Shown piece by piece: positions 33,407-46,711 of a stretch of 64,000 bases of DNA (positions are counted from its first letter, which is position 1; every line of letters begins with the position of its first letter). The notes beneath the pieces are model-generated. The model saw only the letters and a program-made list of their open reading frames with translations. It searched no databases and was not told the DNA's origin. Origin of the DNA: a virus; the IMG/VR virus record IMGVR_UViG_3300037484_000104, positions 28,399 through 92,398 of that record. One strand, written 5' to 3'. A program made the translations under genes and the position numbers.

Positions 33407-33616
33407 GATCTAAACATTAAGATATATGTTAAATAAATTACGATATTGGATTATATCCAAACTACTGACATACGATGAAAGGTATTTATTATACGATGCT
33501 CTAGAAACTAGAATTATATTTTTAGTGTCTGAGAGAGTTAAAAATAAATCATTGGATTATCAAAATACTGGTGACGATATAGGTAGTCTATACAAATTAA
33601 GAAGAAATTTAATGCT

Positions 33617-34174
33617 ATGGGGAAATTAGTTAATATAGAGGGAATAGAGTTAGAACAATGTGTTCTAGATAATGATGAATTAGATGGTCCAATTGTTAGA
33701 GAGGTACTCGGTATGTACGAAGATAATTCAGAGTATATCCTATCAGATCCTTTAGAAGATGATATGGATTATATTACAACTACCCCAGAAGATGTACAGT
33801 TTATCAATGAGTATATAGAATCTGAGTTAGATAAACAACCTGATAATGTAGAGGAAGATATACATATACAGGATTTATTAGAACAAGAATCTGAAGTATT
33901 TCCGAGTTGTGTGGGATTTATACAGTGGGTGCAACACAGTGAATTTGCAGATGCTATTCCTCAATATGAGGATTATGTAAGAGAATATAAGAAAGAACTT
34001 AGAGAATGGTACTTTAATAAACACCCCCAATATGCTAGAAATAGTAATGGTGATGTTGCTTTTTATAATGGTCAACCGGTAACTAACAATGACTTAGAAT
34101 TGGGAGATAAGGTAATGGATATGTATAGTAATTCTATAGACAATGACAAAGATTACGAAAGTGATAATAACTAG
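33617..34174 (+). CDS. acidic hypothetical protein
   Basis: 185 aa, D/E-rich. Confidence 0.6.
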   Translation: MGKLVNIEGIELEQCVLDNDELDGPIVREVLGMYEDNSEYILSDPLEDDMDYITTTPEDVQFINEYIESELDKQPDNVEEDIHIQDLLEQESEVFPSCVGFIQWVQHSEFADAIPQYEDYVREYKKELREWYFNKHPQYARNSNGDVAFYNGQPVTNNDLELGDKVMDMYSNSIDNDKDYESDNN

Positions 34175-34266
34175 AAGTGTTGTTAAAAATCAACAACCTC
34201 AACCAATAGTGTTTACAATTAATAATATAGATCCTTCTATATCAGAAGGTATAATAGTGATAAGAG

Positions 34267-34743
34267 ATGCTAGAAAGTAATTACTATACTCCATTAATCG
34301 AGGAGTTCTACGTTGGATTTGAGCATGAAGAATATGTGTCTCAAGTTATTTCACCACAGGATAGAGTTATAATAAATGGAGAGATTTATATAGGTCCTGA
34401 AAAACTACAATCAAAGTGGGTAAAATCAGTACTTTCAGATTATCATTTTGATATGGAGAATATATTAGATATATACAATTCTAAAAAAGAAAGCGATAAA
34501 TTAAGAGTTAAATATTTAGATAAGTCTGATATAGAAAGTTTAGGGTTTACTCTAATAGAAGGTTCTCAATCTGAGTATATAAATAGTCATGGTGATAAGA
34601 TATGGTTTGGAAAGAAAGATGATTCTGGATTACTATGGATAACAAAGATTATAAATAAAGTAGAAGTGAAAGTTGCTCAATGGCATGTTATAAAGAATAT
34701 CAACGAATTACGTAAACTACTTAAACAATTAGGAATAGAATGA
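34267..34743 (+). CDS. conserved phage hypothetical protein
   Basis: YYTPLIEEFYVGFE...RVKYLDKSDIESLGF...INELRKLLKQLGI. Confidence 0.65.
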   Translation: MLESNYYTPLIEEFYVGFEHEEYVSQVISPQDRVIINGEIYIGPEKLQSKWVKSVLSDYHFDMENILDIYNSKKESDKLRVKYLDKSDIESLGFTLIEGSQSEYINSHGDKIWFGKKDDSGLLWITKIINKVEVKVAQWHVIKNINELRKLLKQLGIE

Positions 34744-35078
34744 TAGATAAGCATAAAATAACAGTAGTGTATCCAGACCTATACTTTGTAGTTATATACA
34801 AGTGGAATTACATGAAAGATTGTGGTGATCTGACTAATGTTGATTTTGAGGTATATGAAATATTAGAGATGACTGAATCTGAAGAAAGTGTAGTTTGTGA
34901 AAAAGAAGCAATGTGTGTGGGATTTATTAAATGGGACGGATGTTGTGATTTTCATATAGAAAGAACTCATTTTTGTGGATACTATAGATTCAATCAATTA
35001 AATAAAGTATTCGCTGAGATATACTATAAAGTTGAAGAGATTTGTAAAGTAGATGATTTAATAACTAAAGGAGCATGA
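34740..35078 (+). CDS. hypothetical protein
   Basis: GFIKWDGC..HFCG motif. Confidence 0.6.
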   Translation: MIDKHKITVVYPDLYFVVIYKWNYMKDCGDLTNVDFEVYEILEMTESEESVVCEKEAMCVGFIKWDGCCDFHIERTHFCGYYRFNQLNKVFAEIYYKVEEICKVDDLITKGA

Positions 35079-35383
35079 GTTTAATAACATTTCCAATTGA
35101 GTCATACCCAGTCTTATACAAGATGTACTGGAGTGATGACTTAGAAGAAGATAAGCGTATAGAGAATAACAAGGATAAGTTGTCAATATATGGACAGATA
35201 TACAATACTTACTATAATCAAACATTCGATGGTAACAGTTTATATACAGTTACGTATACTGGAAGAACTAGTGGTTGGCAGATTATCTTTAAGATATTAT
35301 ACTTGACTAATGATGGTAGTGTAGACTACCTATGGGAGTACTTTGATAACTGGGTTAAGATATTGAATTTAAATAGATATTAA
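35075..35383 (+). CDS. hypothetical protein
   Basis: 102 aa; weak MCP-like YLW..F..W segment. Confidence 0.55.
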   Translation: MSLITFPIESYPVLYKMYWSDDLEEDKRIENNKDKLSIYGQIYNTYYNQTFDGNSLYTVTYTGRTSGWQIIFKILYLTNDGSVDYLWEYFDNWVKILNLNRY

Positions 35384-35384
35384 G

Positions 35385-35780
35385 ATGAGTGATATAAGAA
35401 CATATAAAATGCCCGGTAGTTACAAGGGTATAAGTGATTTAAGTTCCATCTATGCTTTTCATGGTAACTCGCAAGGATATGATTCATGCTCTAATGATGT
35501 AAATGATTTTATTGGATCACAAGGATGGATGTCAGTATCTCATGGATTTAAAGATATTGATTATCTAAATCAAGATGAGGTTAATAAGAGGTCATTAGAG
35601 ATACAAAAAGAGAATGATGAGTATATCAAATCCTTATATAAATCTGGACAGTATGGAGAGTACAATGGAGATATTAATTTATCACTCAAATATATGCCTT
35701 TATATGATGATCCTTCACCAATTCACTCAAAGGGGGTTGAATCATACAGAATGGCATTTATAGATTTTAGTAAGGAATAA
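35385..35780 (+). CDS. small protein carrying an MCP C-terminal fragment
   Basis: NGDINLSLKYMPLYDD...KGVESYRMAFIDF vs MCP NGIELTLKHFPLYDN...KPLESYRMTFIDF. Confidence 0.8.
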   Translation: MSDIRTYKMPGSYKGISDLSSIYAFHGNSQGYDSCSNDVNDFIGSQGWMSVSHGFKDIDYLNQDEVNKRSLEIQKENDEYIKSLYKSGQYGEYNGDINLSLKYMPLYDDPSPIHSKGVESYRMAFIDFSKE

Positions 35781-35782
35781 TT

Positions 35783-36082
35783 ATGACTATACCTAAATCA
35801 TTTCAACTAGGTGGATCTACAATTAATGTAGAGGTTGTTAGTAATCCAATGGAAACAGGTAGTGCCGCTTGGATAGAATTAGCTACAGGAAGAATTAAAG
35901 TATCTAGTAATTATGTTGGATCACCTTGTAGTCAAGATTATATAGAATCTGGATTTTATCATGAATTAGTGCACGGTATATTACAAACTATGGGTAAAAA
36001 GGAGTTAGACAAGGATGAGGAATTTGTAGAAGGATTTGCTAATCTACTTCATCAATTTATTAAATCAGCAAAGTATGAGTAG
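35783..36082 (+). CDS. zincin-like metallopeptidase
   Basis: FYHELVHGIL (HExxH) plus downstream DEEFVE. Confidence 0.75.
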   Translation: MTIPKSFQLGGSTINVEVVSNPMETGSAAWIELATGRIKVSSNYVGSPCSQDYIESGFYHELVHGILQTMGKKELDKDEEFVEGFANLLHQFIKSAKYE

Positions 36083-36272
36083 ACTTGTAAATAAAATATT
36101 AGTGTTTGATGATGGTAGTGTAGAGATTACCAAATATAATAGTCCCACTCCATTATTAGATGAATTATGGAAGAAGGCTAAATATTGTAAATTAAAAGAT
36201 GGTACTCCTTGTACATGTAGAGATATGATGGATGAACTTATGATTGACAATGCTCTTAAAACAATGAAGTAA
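36075..36272 (+). CDS. small protein ending in an MCP N-terminal-like motif
   Basis: start MSRLVNK; C-terminal MMDELMIDNALKT vs MCP LVDENMLSNALVT. Confidence 0.6.
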   Translation: MSRLVNKILVFDDGSVEITKYNSPTPLLDELWKKAKYCKLKDGTPCTCRDMMDELMIDNALKTMK

Positions 36273-36505
36273 TGAATAGACACATTATATCAGATGATAC
36301 TTATAATCACATAGAATCTGAAACCTGTTGGTGTAATCCCCGTATAAGTCAATCAGAAGGAGAAACTTGTTATATTCATAATAGTAATTATTCTACAGAC
36401 ATAGAAACTGAGGATAGAGAAGAAGTAGATTATAGGTCATTTCCAGAAGGTTATTTAAGATGGAAGAATGAGACAAGTATGTTTCCTAGAAACAATTATA
36501 GATAA
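36272..36505 (+). CDS. small His/Cys metal-binding protein
   Basis: HIESETCWCNP...YIHN. Confidence 0.55.
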   Translation: MNRHIISDDTYNHIESETCWCNPRISQSEGETCYIHNSNYSTDIETEDREEVDYRSFPEGYLRWKNETSMFPRNNYR

Positions 36506-36689
36506 GTGATATGAATAGAAATATTAACTTAGACAAGATTAGAGAGAGAGCAATGTTATCTGTTAATGAAGAGGATGTAGTTGAATTCTCAGAGTTCTTT
36601 GCAGATAATTATGAAGATATAATCGAGAATACAGATGATTATATTGCAGAAGGTATAACAAGTATGTTTTATATAGATAAAGAAGCAGA

Positions 36690-36872
36690 ATGACAACTAA
36701 TGATTATGCGACCGGTTACGGGATATATGAAAGTATGAAGACTGCTCCAATAAAAGAGATAGATTTTAATAACCTAAATAGTCTAAACGGAGATTGGATA
36801 ATTTATTGTGGTTCCGATACTGTAGACGAATGGATAAAATTAATTAATAAATATGAAATTAAAAGTAATTAA
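36690..36872 (+). CDS. small protein with MCP-like segments
   Basis: TGYGIYESM and WIIYCGSDTVDEWIKLI resemble MCP RGSGLLQQI and FVALTGEMGMKEFDRIL. Confidence 0.5.
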   Translation: MTTNDYATGYGIYESMKTAPIKEIDFNNLNSLNGDWIIYCGSDTVDEWIKLINKYEIKSN

Positions 36873-37311
36873 AGCAGTTAAAGGATTAGTTCCTGGAGAT
36901 ATATTAGATTATAATGAGAAAGATTCTAATTATGAGATCCTCAAAGTTGAAGAGGATATTACTGAATCTGGAAGTAGTAAGAAGTCATTAAAAGTTACTA
37001 TTCCTGAATACTTAGTAGATGACTTTAAAGAGTTTTTTACATGGGTAGACGATGATGGTAATGATATGAAAGTAGAAGAGTTTAGATATAAAGATAGTCC
37101 TAATTACGAATCTGATGTGGTAAAAGAGGTCGCTAAACCATCTGAACCAACAGATCTAGATTTACTTAGACAGAAAGTAATTGATCTAGAAAAGCAATTA
37201 GATGAGTATAAAAATCCAATAGATGGTTATATACAACATATTAAAAATAGAGTGTACAATATCCCAGTAGTTTATACATATAATCCTTATAGAACAATAT
37301 ATAATTGGTAA
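36853..37311 (+). CDS. conserved crAss-like hypothetical protein
   Basis: MKLKVIK...PGDIL; located upstream of the Zn-finger/terminase block. Confidence 0.6.
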   Translation: MKLKVIKAVKGLVPGDILDYNEKDSNYEILKVEEDITESGSSKKSLKVTIPEYLVDDFKEFFTWVDDDGNDMKVEEFRYKDSPNYESDVVKEVAKPSEPTDLDLLRQKVIDLEKQLDEYKNPIDGYIQHIKNRVYNIPVVYTYNPYRTIYNW

Positions 37312-37433
37312 TATGAGCAGTAGATGCGAGAGTTGTCCATTACAGGACATAGATTGTTATTATCTACTAGATATGATTCGAATAGATAAGGAGATGAAAC
37401 AAAGAAAACATAATAGAAAAAAGGTTATTAAGA

Positions 37434-37754
37434 ATGGAAGAAAATAAAGATACGGCTCCAGTTAAGCCAGAAGTTAAACAATATGAGTTTGCACATTTAG
37501 TAGTACACTGTGGTAAATGTAATAGTAAGTATGTACTAGATAAAGATGTTAAAGGTGGGGTACAGATTAATCTCCCAACTGCTAGTAATGCAGAGTTAGT
37601 ATTAGTATGTAAAGAGTGTAAGAATACAATGGCCTTATACTATGTAGAATCAGATGGATCAACTAGGAAAGAAGAACCTAAAGTTGAGAGTGCAGAAATA
37701 GAAGAAGTTATTCCTGAAGTAGCTTATGAACCTAAAATGGAGGTTGTAGAATAA
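37434..37754 (+). CDS. Zn-ribbon protein
   Basis: CGKC...CKEC. Confidence 0.65.
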   Translation: MEENKDTAPVKPEVKQYEFAHLVVHCGKCNSKYVLDKDVKGGVQINLPTASNAELVLVCKECKNTMALYYVESDGSTRKEEPKVESAEIEEVIPEVAYEPKMEVVE

Positions 37755-37951
37755 TGGAATTAGTTTGTTGGAAAACAGATATTAAAGGTACTAGTAAGTC
37801 AATCTTTAATGTAAAGGTTTGGGAGAAGTACCGTACAACTAGGGGTAAGAATGCAGGGAGTATCATTGAGATATCATCTACCTCTAAGTTTATACAAGCA
37901 TTAAAATTAGCTTGGTTTATTATAAAGAATTACAAATGGTTATAGTAATAT

Positions 37952-38266
37952 ATGATTAAATATATATTAGAATATAAAGATAAGACTTTCTACCACAATA
38001 GAAGATTAGATATTGAAACATATAGGAAAACTTACAGTACTGGATATTTATATTATGATAATAAAATTCTAGTTGAAATATCTGATTTTACTTGTAAAAA
38101 TGGAGCAATAGATAAAGACTGGAATCCTGTATATGTAGTGAATGAAATATTAACTCAACGAAATTATTTAGAGTTATTATTACATAATTCTAATCCTAAA
38201 TATAAATTATATACGGAAGAAGAGTTTAACGATATATTTAATGTAATTAAAGAAATAAATATATGA
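37952..38266 (+). CDS. hypothetical protein
   Basis: 104 aa ORF. Confidence 0.5.
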   Translation: MIKYILEYKDKTFYHNRRLDIETYRKTYSTGYLYYDNKILVEISDFTCKNGAIDKDWNPVYVVNEILTQRNYLELLLHNSNPKYKLYTEEEFNDIFNVIKEINI

Positions 38267-38550
38267 TAGTATCAAATAAGGTAGACCCAATTCTAAAGGA
38301 TTTATCTTTGAGATTCTACAAAGATATGAGGGTGATCAAGTTAATATGTGATCATCCTTTATTTTTTGTATCAGAACGTATCAAAGATCCTAATGACACA
38401 AGAGCAATAATGATCCCATTTTTTGGGAAGTTTGTGTTTAGATATGGTAAAACTATGGAGAGTAAGATAAAGAATGTAAAAAATCATGAGTCTAGAATAG
38501 CTCAGAAATGTAACCCAATTAGTAACCCTGACGTAACTGAGACCAAATGA
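38263..38550 (+). CDS. IHF/HU-like protein
   Basis: helix-helix followed by AIMIPFFGKF beta arm. Confidence 0.6.
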   Translation: MIVSNKVDPILKDLSLRFYKDMRVIKLICDHPLFFVSERIKDPNDTRAIMIPFFGKFVFRYGKTMESKIKNVKNHESRIAQKCNPISNPDVTETK

Positions 38551-39071
38551 TATTTGATATAGTAGGATCAACGATAGTGTTGAAAGCAGAATCTTTAGTA
38601 GTCCCTGAATTTAGAAAGTTATGGGATAGAGATAAATCTAAGGATAAGAAAAGAGCTATAAATGAAATAACTTATGCAGTATTTTTATGTGATAAATCTG
38701 ATAAGAATCCTTATAAAAATTATTCAGAGTTTGATAGAATAGTAATGTTAAAAAAGGATTTTGATATAAAAGAGATAGACTCACTAATACAAGAAGCAGT
38801 AGAGAAGTATAAAAAACTTAATACCACTAGATACGAAAGGGTTGTACATGCTGCTCTTGATTCACTAGAAGATATAGAAGATTACTATATAGGTATTAAA
38901 GAAAAAGATAAGAAAGAATTTGATATAAGTGAGTACTTAGGATCAATGGAAAAGTTAGGAAAAGCCATAAAGTCTCTGAGAGAGTTGGAAAAACAACTTG
39001 AAGCGGATAGGACTGAAGGTAGTAAAGTTCGAGGAGATAATCAAATTGGACTATATGAAATTCCAAAATAA
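38547..39071 (+). CDS. putative terminase small subunit
   Basis: MIFDI...WDRDKSKDK...KVRGD; directly upstream of terL. Confidence 0.5.
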   Translation: MIFDIVGSTIVLKAESLVVPEFRKLWDRDKSKDKKRAINEITYAVFLCDKSDKNPYKNYSEFDRIVMLKKDFDIKEIDSLIQEAVEKYKKLNTTRYERVVHAALDSLEDIEDYYIGIKEKDKKEFDISEYLGSMEKLGKAIKSLRELEKQLEADRTEGSKVRGDNQIGLYEIPK

Positions 39072-45238: not shown

Positions 45239-46711
45239 ATGCAAGATACCGTATTAAATAATCTTCAACTCTTTAGGTCCAAATATTTTTCTGGACTTGT
45301 AGACGAGAATATGCTTTCTAATGCTTTAGTTACGGAGCCTCATAGAGTGTCTAATGTTTTATCCTATATTTTCGGACGTTATGAAAATACTACTGTTGAC
45401 TTTTTGACAGCAGGTTTAGGTAAAACAATCATCACTGAAAATCGTCAGTATGAGTGGCCTGTAATGATTGAAAGCGAAAAAGCAATTTCAATTAAACAAG
45501 CTAGATGGCAGGGTTCCGCTGTAGTATCAACTGATACTCCTGGTCAAAATGGTTCTCCTATTCAATTGTGGTTAGGTGAAAAATGGTTTGGTCCTGGTGC
45601 TATCCTCGAATTTGATGATAAAGAATATCAAGTAATTGTACAGGGTACTCCATATCAAGATGGTAGTGATTGGGTTTATACAGTTGTTGTGGCTGATGGT
45701 CAGTCTACATCATATATTCTTCCATCATTATTAGCTGCTGGAAAACAAGTATCACGTGCTGGTTCTGCTTATCCTGAATACAGTGAAGAAGCTGATATCG
45801 TGAACTATCAAACACCGTTTAAATTACGTAACCAATTAACTACTATGCGTTTATCGTATGATATTACTGGTTCTGCTTTATCCGATTTGATGGTAATAGC
45901 AATGCGTGATCCTAAAACTAAAAGGACTTCTTATTTATGGAGTGACTATCAAGAATGGATTGCCTTACGTCAATGGTACAATACTATTGAATACCAGTTG
46001 GTATACGATAAGTACAGTAGCAATGCTGATGGTAGCACAGACTTAGTTGGTTCTAATGGACGTCCTATTTATAGAGGCTCTGGTTTGTTACAACAGATCG
46101 CTCCTTCTAATCGTCAATCATATACTACACTTACTGCAGACTTAGTAGAAGACTTCTTATTCAATCTTGCCTATAATGTACTTGGTAATAGCGAACGTAA
46201 ATTCGTAGCTCTTACAGGTGAAATGGGTATGAAAGAATTCGATCGTATATTGAGAGCCAAGGCTTCTTCTTATACACTCGTAGATACTAAATTTGTAACT
46301 GGTAGTGGTCAAGACCTTACTTTAGGTGGACAGTTTACAACTTATAAGATGCTCAATGGTATTGAATTAACATTGAAACATTTCCCACTTTACGATAATA
46401 TCGTTAAGAACAGAAAGTTGCATCCAATTAGTGGTAAACCACTTGAATCCTATCGTATGACTTTCATTGATTTTGGTAACCGTGATGGTGAATCCAATAT
46501 CCAAAAAGTTGTTAAAAAGGGTCGTGAAATGGTTATGTGGCATACAGGTGGGTCTGCAGCTCCTGGAACAGGATTTGCAAAATCTATCAATACACTCCGT
46601 TCTAATGCAAAAGACGGATACCAAGTTCACTTCTTATCAGAACAAGGTATTATGATGAAAGATCCTACTTCGGCAGGTGAACTCTATGTATCTAGTGAAT
46701 ATGGAATTTAA
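45239..46711 (+). CDS. major capsid protein (HK97 fold, crAss type)
   Basis: 490 aa; DENMLSNAL, YEWPV, ESYRMTFIDF, DGYQVHFLSEQGI; followed by a terminator. Confidence 0.9.
   Translation: MQDTVLNNLQLFRSKYFSGLVDENMLSNALVTEPHRVSNVLSYIFGRYENTTVDFLTAGLGKTIITENRQYEWPVMIESEKAISIKQARWQGSAVVSTDTPGQNGSPIQLWLGEKWFGPGAILEFDDKEYQVIVQGTPYQDGSDWVYTVVVADGQSTSYILPSLLAAGKQVSRAGSAYPEYSEEADIVNYQTPFKLRNQLTTMRLSYDITGSALSDLMVIAMRDPKTKRTSYLWSDYQEWIALRQWYNTIEYQLVYDKYSSNADGSTDLVGSNGRPIYRGSGLLQQIAPSNRQSYTTLTADLVEDFLFNLAYNVLGNSERKFVALTGEMGMKEFDRILRAKASSYTLVDTKFVTGSGQDLTLGGQFTTYKMLNGIELTLKHFPLYDNIVKNRKLHPISGKPLESYRMTFIDFGNRDGESNIQKVVKKGREMVMWHTGGSAAPGTGFAKSINTLRSNAKDGYQVHFLSEQGIMMKDPTSAGELYVSSEYGI

What the first reader, a model, noticed from the sequence alone, without database searches (positions are those of the whole stretch)
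33617..37311. Cluster of small ORFs built from different fragments of the phage's own major capsid protein: candidate capsid-mimic/decoy system
Seen: at least three short genes upstream of the terminase each match a different part of the MCP (45239-46711). ORF 35385 matches MCP aa ~363-412, ORF 36075 matches aa 19-32, and ORF 36690 matches aa ~279-341. Weaker hits: 35075 (DYLWEYFDNWV vs SYLWSDYQEWI; DGNSLYTV vs DGSDWVYTV), 33617 (LREWY...YARNSNG...NGQPV vs LRQWY...YSSNADG...NGRPI) and an unannotated 45-aa ORF at 34143-34280 (SEGIIVIRD vs SEQGIMMKD). The fragments sit inside unrelated sequence and are not in MCP order, so this is not one decayed second MCP gene. Established: some defence systems sense capsid proteins (CapRel-SJ46; Lit via the T4 Gol peptide). 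Inference: these peptides may be decoys that soak up MCP sensors, dominant-negative inhibitors of co-infecting relatives' capsids, or timers of the phage's own head assembly.
Basis: partly seen in the sequence, partly recalled or inferred. Interest (0 to 1): 0.88.

Follow-up and report, generated by a model that had tools for sequence, protein, structure and literature searches.

The report
One capsid-mimic accessory gene, not a cluster
Only one of the flagged small genes really copies a piece of this crAss-like phage's major capsid protein (MCP), and it belongs to an undescribed, patchily distributed family of small phage proteins whose tail looks like an MCP strand pair, which may bait host sensors or dock on capsids.

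Summary
The claimed cluster of capsid-fragment ORFs does not hold up. Against sequence shuffles, a capsid HMM, Pfam Crass_capsid and a six-frame scan of the whole 92-kb genome, only ORF 35385-35780 (131 aa) resembles the major capsid protein (MCP, 45239-46711). ORFs 36075, 36690, 35075, 33617 and 34143 score at chance level.

The one real match is interesting. The ORF belongs to a conserved, unannotated family of about 125-aa proteins: 138 clusters at 50% identity, with no Pfam, PHROG, PDB or BFVD match and no copy in GenBank phages. Each member has a confidently folded N-terminal domain with no detected fold match (residues 1-110 pLDDT above 85). Each also has a flexible C-terminal tail homologous to MCP residues about 375-424 (profile-profile E 6e-8).

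The tail keeps MCP-invariant residues. In three of six phages it matches its own phage's MCP clade best. Two family members have added a second, non-adjacent MCP piece. Synonymous sites are saturated, so the likeness is held at the protein level.

The gene is a single-gene cassette. It is absent from 10 of 10 near-complete relatives, including one whose MCP is 97% identical.

Best reading: an accessory MCP mimic. What it does is untested: counter-defence bait about 35%, capsid docking about 30%.

The parts
35385..35780 (+). Gene for a 131-aa accessory protein, a member of an unannotated family of about 125-aa proteins with an MCP-derived tail.
   Evidence: Family: 13 close clusters and 138 representatives at 50% identity, nearly all 100-190 aa. 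No PHROG match; the only Pfam hit is a sub-threshold Crass_capsid match. AlphaFold2 mean pLDDT is 91 with a 69-sequence alignment.
35385..35669 (+). N-terminal domain (aa 1-95). It has conserved G-x-D-D-L and A-F-x-G-N-S-Q-G-D motifs and a 25-residue helix (aa 63-87). It is not MCP-like at profile level.
   Evidence: Conservation. pLDDT is 91-99 over aa 1-100. No fold match in PDB or BFVD. hhalign against MCPs aligns only the tail.
35673..35777 (+). C-terminal tail (aa 97-131) homologous to MCP residues about 375-424: strand, P-L-Y-D turn, shortened loop, E-S-Y-R strand.
   Evidence: hhalign of 69 family members against 6 diverse MCPs: probability 94.7, E 5.8e-8, 43 columns. Colinear window matches reach z 4.9-7.2 even with this phage and its relatives left out of both profiles. 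pLDDT falls to 56-73 after aa 110.
45239..46711 (+). Major capsid protein (490 aa), the source and model of the copied segment.
   Evidence: Pfam Crass_capsid E 9.8e-189. phmmer hit to PhicrAss001 gp32, PDB 7QOF, E 1.2e-40.
46361..46510 (+). MCP residues 375-424, the strand pair that the small protein's tail copies. It contains the MCP-invariant D386, S404 and R406.
   Evidence: Alignment ranges. Invariant columns. Assigning it to the HK97-fold P-domain hairpin is my inference from fold topology; it was not measured here.
33426..39071 (+). Context: a co-directional array of about 19 tightly packed small ORFs upstream of the large terminase gene, behaving as single-gene cassettes.
   Evidence: ORF map. 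The relative L029 (MCP 97% identical) lacks ORFs 35385, 36036 and 36690 but keeps their neighbours. Contigs of a relative in run X2 join across whole ORFs at gene boundaries.

Best explanation
ORF 35385-35780 encodes an accessory chimeric protein. It has a conserved, well-folded N-terminal domain of unknown fold (aa 1-95) and a flexible C-terminal tail (aa 97-131) descended from a roughly 50-residue strand pair of a crAss-type major capsid protein (MCP residues about 375-424). By HK97-fold topology I infer this is the P-domain hairpin.

Shown: the homology; the family; its patchy, cassette-like distribution; protein-level maintenance of the likeness; retention of MCP-invariant residues; and clade-level matching of tail to resident MCP in three of six phages.

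Inferred: the protein works as a mimic of that MCP element. The tail occupies a site on some partner that normally recognises the MCP strand pair, and the conserved N-domain carries the activity or blocks the partner.

My odds for the partner:
- About 35%: a host factor that senses unassembled MCP, so the protein acts as a counter-defence antagonist or bait.
- About 30%: the capsid lattice itself, with the tail as a docking or targeting peptide that places the N-domain on or in capsids.
- About 10%: the phage's own assembly control.
- About 8%: interference with co-infecting phages.
- The rest: unknown.

The confidence given below applies to the mimic reading as a whole, not to any one partner.
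For: - Homology limited to the tail and significant by four methods.
- The family HMM hits the same MCP region in about 85 MCPs from related loci and in 10 further genomes.
- Some members continue the likeness past the second strand into the next MCP motif.
- The family is large and conserved in length. The N-domain is confidently folded while the tail is not, the usual look of a domain carrying a binding peptide.
- MCP-invariant D386 and S404 are at least 90% conserved in family subsets, and R406 is the majority residue.
- Cognate matching: over six small-protein/MCP pairs the diagonal sum is 341, reached by only 2 of 720 permutations. Against 79 distinct MCP hairpins, the W tail prefers the W clade (mean 85 against 46). 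The L001 tail prefers its own clade (90 against 72). The G006 tail ranks its own MCP first of 79.
- Two members (P0020 = L001, and P0128) add a second MCP piece matching MCP about 250-320, placed after the hairpin. For L001 the score against its own MCP is 85 against 27 +/- 3.8 for shuffles, and only 45 against the W MCP.
- Codon identity at identical residues equals the codon-usage expectation (10 observed against 10.0 expected; 5 against 6.9). The likeness is therefore kept by selection on the protein, not by recent gene conversion.
- Accessory status: absent from 10 of 10 near-complete relatives, from every other MCP-flanking locus searched (80 around relatives of the W MCP and 21 of relatives of the L001 MCP), and from the exact slot in L029. 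No conserved neighbour in 19 loci.
- N-domains are 30-54% identical between phages whose MCPs are only 15-27% identical. This fits horizontal spread or a conserved target.
Against: - No experiment and no expression data exist.
- Cognate matching rests on six pairs, is driven by three of them (W, L001, G006), and fails for G001, G003 and G007.
- Tails in general resemble the W-clade/consensus hairpin, so a single old capture followed by horizontal spread explains much of the pattern.
- Assigning the copied segment to the P-domain hairpin, and its place at capsomer contacts, is inferred, not measured.
- Rough codon counts in two close pairs (11 synonymous against 26 non-synonymous differences; 4 against 9) suggest relaxed or diversifying evolution. 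They are too few to interpret.
- Known capsid sensors are activated by binding the capsid protein (PMC9712102), which makes a simple decoy mechanism awkward.
Confidence: 0.65

Rival explanations
1. Capsid docking. The MCP-like tail adds onto the MCP lattice where a neighbouring subunit's strand pair would sit. This tethers the N-domain to procapsids as a minor decoration, a packaged cargo or a capsid-bound accessory.
For: - A flexible C-terminal tail on a folded domain resembles the targeting peptides of encapsulin cargo and scaffolding proteins (my own knowledge).
- The gene lies upstream of, and co-directional with, the terminase-portal-MCP genes in W, L001, L002 and L011.
- The copied pieces (hairpin, and in two members the region after the spine helix) are elements that the crAss001 paper draws at the local three-fold junction (PMC10172136, Extended Data Fig. 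1 legend). The residue mapping is my inference.
- A homotypic-type contact would explain why the tail tracks the resident MCP.
Against: - The gene is dispensable: it is absent from the closest relatives.
- The loop tip between the two strands is shortened in the family and lacks the MCP-conserved H-P.
- In L006 and L010 the gene is not next to the structural genes.
Confidence: 0.3
2. Dominant-negative poison of capsid assembly in co-infecting related phages: superinfection exclusion by a capsid fragment, as with Gag-derived restriction factors of retroviruses.
For: The gene is an accessory, patchy, fast-changing cassette. The tail scores well against many MCPs of the same clade, not only its own.
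Against: The tail resembles the phage's own MCP as much as its clade-mates' MCPs, so the phage would poison itself. No immunity partner is conserved beside the gene.
Confidence: 0.08
3. The phage's own assembly helper or timer: a chaperone that caps the MCP strand-pair site until capsomers join.
For: MCP-invariant residues are retained in the tail. The gene lies near the structural genes.
Against: Close relatives with 61-97% identical MCPs assemble without it. The N-domain is more conserved across phages than the MCP it would serve.
Confidence: 0.1
4. A neutral relic of a partial MCP duplication, or a chance or convergent motif, with no function tied to the MCP.
For: The similarity covers only about 35-50 residues, and the Pfam score is below the gathering cut-off.
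Against: - 138 length-conserved clusters.
- A confident fold.
- Profile-profile E 6e-8, with colinear matches after this phage and its relatives are removed.
- The likeness persists although synonymous sites are saturated.
- Independent second MCP pieces in two members.
Confidence: 0.04

Closest known systems
Crassvirales major capsid protein (Pfam PF23898 Crass_capsid; PhicrAss001 gp32, PDB 7QOF)
   Same: The tail (aa 97-131) is homologous to MCP residues about 375-424 and keeps the MCP-invariant Asp and Ser and mostly the Arg.
   Different: Only about 10% of the MCP is represented. The remaining 95 residues are unrelated to the MCP at profile level. The protein cannot form an HK97 shell, and its Pfam score is below the cut-off.
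SaPIbov5 Ccm, a satellite-encoded capsid-protein homologue that redirects helper capsid assembly (PMC8569155, abstract)
   Same: A mobile element carries a capsid-derived protein that acts through its likeness to a capsid protein.
   Different: Ccm is a full capsid-protein homologue that co-assembles into shells and is carried by a satellite acting against its helper. Here a phage carries a short fragment of an MCP like its own, fused to an unrelated domain.
Capsid-sensing bacterial immunity (CapRelSJ46, activated by direct binding of the SECPhi27 capsid protein; PMC9712102)
   Same: It shows that short surface regions of HK97-fold capsid proteins are read by host immunity. That would give an MCP mimic a target.
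   Different: No sensor is known for crAss-like phages. CapRel is switched on by binding, so a mimic would have to bind without activating. Nothing here shows any link to a defence system.
C-terminal targeting peptides of encapsulin cargo and phage scaffolding proteins (my own knowledge; not tested here)
   Same: A short flexible C-terminal peptide on a folded domain that could bind an HK97-fold shell protein.
   Different: Those peptides are not copies of the shell protein itself, and binding was not shown here.

Membership tests
Pfam PF23898 Crass_capsid (crAss-type major capsid protein) | Score at or above the gathering cut-off (27 bits) with near full-length coverage of the 496-position profile. 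| tested here: not met
   ORF 35385 scores 20.3 bits and covers profile positions 359-424 only. In the six-frame genome scan it scores 18.7 bits over positions 360-425. The true MCP scores 628 bits over positions 2-494.
HK97-fold capsid protein | A-domain plus P-domain fold recognisable by structure comparison. | tested here: inconclusive
   No significant match for the AlphaFold2 models. The best rows are a phage BB1 procapsid chain at Z 2.8 with rmsd 8.1 and unrelated chains at Z <= 3.6. At 131 aa the protein is too short for the full fold.
The new family of about 125-aa proteins (defined here) | N-terminal G-x-D-D-L motif, long helix, and a C-terminal P-L-F-D ... E-S-Y-R strand pair, in a protein of 100-190 aa. 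| tested here: met
   ORF 35385 is the top hit of the family profile (167 bits) and aligns end to end with members 43-75% identical.
Known phage protein families (PHROGs v4) | HMM match at E <= 0.01. | tested here: not met
   No PHROG match for ORF 35385.
Decoy or antagonist of capsid-sensing defence | Binds a host sensor of the MCP and prevents its activation. | not testable with these tools
   No host, no sensor and no expression data are available. Only the mimicry and the accessory-gene signature are shown.
Full-length capsid paralogue (Ccm or T4 gp24 type) | Homology to the capsid protein over most of its length. | tested here: not met
   hhalign aligns only 43 columns.

The most novel reading that the evidence does not exclude
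This family would be the first phage-encoded mimic of the phage's own capsid protein. It would be a horizontally mobile adaptor whose conserved N-domain neutralises a conserved host immune component. Its exchangeable tail, built from one or two surface pieces of the resident MCP, would bait the sensor that reads that MCP.
Probability: 0.3. Interest if true: 0.9.

Novelty: new variant of a known kind. Interest (0 to 1): 0.6.

Why it matters
Capsid proteins are now known to trigger bacterial immunity, but no phage protein that imitates the phage's own capsid has been described.

This family offers a concrete, testable candidate. It is a small soluble protein with a defined MCP-derived peptide, found in environmental crAss-like phages. 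There are natural variants with one or two MCP pieces, and natural presence/absence pairs of otherwise near-identical phages.

Whichever partner it binds (a host sensor or the capsid lattice), it marks the MCP strand pair 375-424 as a functionally read surface of the crAss capsid.

It also shows that the small-ORF array upstream of the terminase gene is a cassette region, where accessory functions of these uncultured phages are likely concentrated.

Tried and rejected
- Complex prediction of the MCP (alignment A5) with the small protein (A1) gave no verdict (score 0.02). It counts neither for nor against binding.
- Fold searches found nothing significant: Foldseek PDB, VIA wide, BFVD and VIA second look.
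- I considered that the whole protein is a permuted mini P-domain (N-terminal strand + helix + strand pair) and did not adopt it. It ranks 2-5 (z about 3) without it, within the range of the control windows.
- The ESM Atlas returned no usable hit.
- GenBank phages: tblastn with three family members found only MCPs or nothing. blastn of the region found nothing.
- The genome-contig scan found no relative. Several alignments were too diverse for pattern scans.
- No RNA holder is listed for the region.
- Recent gene conversion between tail and MCP is rejected: codon identity equals chance.
- No partner gene is conserved next to the family gene in 19 loci.
- The promoter and terminator scan was uninformative: 40 promoter-like sites against 47 expected.
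- Literature searches for phage capsid mimics, decoys or partial MCP duplications found no precedent.
Full report
SETTING. The window is the right-hand 64 kb of a 92,398-base virus record that is held by sediment-metagenome runs. GC content is about 30%. After a strand switch near 32 kb comes a rightward block: about 19 tightly packed small ORFs (33426-39071), then a 668-aa ORF whose homologues precede the portal-size ORF and the MCP in related loci (read here as the large terminase from size and position; not tested), a 788-aa ORF in the portal position, a 396-aa ORF and the MCP. The MCP (45239-46711, 490 aa) is a clear Crass_capsid protein (E 9.8e-189) related to PhicrAss001 gp32, PDB 7QOF (E 1.2e-40). 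This is an environmental crAss-like phage.

CHECK OF THE OBSERVATION. I translated the 19 co-directional small ORFs of 33.4-39.1 kb and compared each with the MCP.
- By Smith-Waterman against 300 shuffles, ORF 35385 stands far out: 106 against 33.5 +/- 4.9, z 14.8.
- ORF 36036/36075 (z 1.5), ORF 36690 (z -0.9), ORF 35075 (z 0.5) and ORF 34143 (z 1.0) are at chance.
- ORF 33617 (z 2.1), ORF 34267 (z 3.5) and the lysine-rich ORF 37313 (z 3.8) are marginal for 19 tests.
- With an HMM of six diverse MCPs and 200 shuffles per ORF, only ORF 35385 exceeds its shuffles: 21.8 bits against a maximum of 3.2.
- Pfam reports Crass_capsid for ORF 35385 alone.
- A six-frame scan of the whole genome at E <= 10 finds only the MCP and ORF 35385.

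The 'cluster of fragments' is therefore not real.

WHAT THE REAL MATCH IS. BLASTP aligns aa 32-128 to MCP 312-412, but profile methods narrow the homology. hhalign of 69 family members against six MCPs gives probability 94.7 and E 5.8e-8 over 43 columns, aligning aa 97-131 with MCP 375-424. Sliding 8-column windows of the family profile over an MCP profile, with this phage and its close relatives removed from both, gives colinear best hits at MCP 375, 381, 399 and 405 with z 4.9-7.2. The family HMM in turn hits this same MCP region in about 85 MCPs from related loci and in ten further genomes. In some members the likeness runs on past the second strand into the next MCP motif, which argues for common descent rather than a convergent motif. 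The MCP-invariant residues D386 and S404 are at least 90% conserved in family subsets, and R406 is the majority residue. From HK97-fold topology I infer that this segment is the P-domain strand pair; that was not measured here.

THE FAMILY. ORF 35385 has 12 close homologous clusters of 125-167 aa at 46-75% identity. A profile search of 1.84 billion representatives gives 138 clusters at E <= 0.001, nearly all 100-190 aa, and no full-length MCP among them.
- There is no PHROG match, no Pfam family apart from the sub-threshold capsid hit, no copy in 50,697 GenBank phage records and none in GTDB genomes.
- With the 69-sequence alignment, AlphaFold2 gives a mean pLDDT of 91. Residues 1-110 are confident (block means 87-99), with a 25-residue helix at 63-87. 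The last 20 residues, which include the second MCP-like strand, fall to 56-73 and take no regular structure.
- No known fold matches the model.
- A subgroup lacks the A-F-x-G-N-S-Q-G-D motif but keeps the helix and the tail, so the tail belongs to the universal core of the family.

AN ACCESSORY CASSETTE.
- In the nearest relative (L029, MCP 97% identical), homologues of ORFs 35075, 35783, 36272, 36511, 36853 and the ORFs that follow are present in order. ORFs 35385, 36036 and 36690 are missing.
- Ten related, mostly complete genomes (MCP 61-97% identical) contain no stand-alone family member. The family profile hits only their MCPs.
- None of the 80 loci around relatives of the W MCP has one, and none of the 21 loci of relatives of the L001 MCP. 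L001's own contig, fetched again as L109, is the only locus that does.
- Contigs of a relative in a second sediment sample join across whole ORFs at gene boundaries: 36689 to 36853, 37944 to 38263, 36074 to 36272, 34739 to 35075 and 35383 to 36035.
- Across 19 loci that carry a family member, no neighbouring gene is conserved.
- The N-domains of six carriers are 30-54% identical, while their MCPs are only 15-27% identical. That points to horizontal spread or an unusually conserved target.

RELATION BETWEEN TAIL AND RESIDENT MCP.
- For six phages with both genes (W; L001; L002+L015; L006+L016; L011+L017; L010+L018), the tail-against-hairpin score matrix has a diagonal sum of 341. Only 2 of 720 permutations reach it.
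- Against 79 distinct hairpins, the W tail prefers W-clade MCPs (mean 85 against 46 for the L001 clade). The L001 tail prefers its own clade (90 against 72). The G006 tail ranks its own MCP first. G001, G003 and G007 show no preference. Tracking is therefore real but partial.
- Tails in general sit close to the W-clade/consensus hairpin, which fits an old capture followed by spread and occasional re-matching.
- Codons at identical residues agree no more often than codon usage predicts: 10 against 10.0 expected for W, and 5 against 6.9 for the second L001 piece. Recent gene conversion is excluded, and the likeness is being held at the protein level.
- The L001 protein (184 aa) carries a second MCP-derived piece after the hairpin. 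Its aa 137-169 match its own MCP 275-311, scoring 85 against 27 +/- 3.8 for shuffles, and 45 against the W MCP.
- P0128 (281 aa) has a similar addition matching MCP about 250-320.
- In the MCP this piece lies before the hairpin, so the order is permuted. Accreting non-adjacent MCP pieces is what one expects if selection favours imitating a three-dimensional MCP surface.

MECHANISM. What is shown is a conserved accessory protein that displays MCP-derived peptide(s) on a flexible tail. The inference is that it acts by mimicry, the tail engaging something that normally reads that MCP element.
- Counter-defence (about 35%, narrowly favoured). The gene shows the accessory-gene signature: a cassette array, patchiness, horizontal spread, and fast change (rough codon counts of 11 synonymous to 26 non-synonymous and 4 to 9). 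The caveat is that known capsid sensors are activated by binding (PMC9712102), so the protein would have to be an antagonist, not a simple sponge.
- Capsid docking or targeting (about 30%). This is supported by the peptide-on-a-domain architecture and the gene's place before the structural genes.
- An assembly helper (about 10%) fits poorly with dispensability in close relatives.
- Poisoning of competing phages (about 8%) fits poorly with the tail's likeness to the phage's own MCP.
- A neutral relic or chance motif (about 4%) is contradicted by the size of the family, its fold and the saturated synonymous sites.

COMPARISON AND NOVELTY. The protein is not a Crass_capsid member (below cut-off, about 10% coverage) and not a full capsid paralogue like Ccm. 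I found no described phage protein built from pieces of the phage's own MCP. It is best filed as a new variant of capsid-derived accessory or mimic proteins. Its function is unproven.

LIMITS. Everything here is computational. There are only six cognate pairs. The domain assignment of the copied segments is inferred. One tool (look-up of encoding contigs) was closed. No RNA data exist for the region.

Noticed in passing
window 33426-39071; joints at 34739/35075, 35383/36035, 36074/36272, 36689/36853, 37944/38263: The small-ORF array behaves as a set of single-gene cassettes. Contigs of a relative in a second sediment run skip whole ORFs at gene boundaries. The closest IMG/VR relative (L029) lacks ORFs 35385, 36036 and 36690 while keeping their neighbours.
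   Followed up: partly
L001:751-1302 (protein P0020) and protein P0128: Two family members carry a second MCP-derived segment (MCP about 250-320) after the hairpin-like tail, in permuted order relative to the MCP. For L001 it matches its own MCP far better than the window's MCP.
   Followed up: yes
window 35783-36082: The 99-aa ORF immediately downstream, starting 3 bases after the end of ORF 35385, matches phrog_1233 (unknown function, E 2e-14). It contains an H-E-x-x-H motif, so it may be a small metallopeptidase-like protein. Its homologue in L029 is only 42% identical although the flanking ORFs are 83-95% identical.
   Followed up: no
window 36853-37311 and 37434-37754: ORF 36853 has a sub-threshold DUF7399 hit (E 1e-4). 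ORF 37434 has two C-x-x-C pairs and weak zinc-ribbon hits. ORF 37434 has homologues in 17 related loci and ORF 38547 in 32, making them the best-conserved members of the array.
   Followed up: no
six phages: window, L001, L002/L015, L006/L016, L011/L017, L010/L018: The small protein's N-terminal domain is 30-54% identical between phages whose MCPs are only 15-27% identical. This suggests horizontal transfer of the cassette between distant crAss-like lineages.
   Followed up: partly
protein P0138 (406 aa): A family domain is fused to a roughly 290-residue C-terminal region of unknown nature. Other long members (P0043, P0073, P0126) were not examined.
   Followed up: no
L006/L016 and L010/L018: In these two phages the family gene is not upstream of the structural genes. 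The MCP lies 12-22 kb away on the other strand, so linkage to the structural module is not universal.
   Followed up: no
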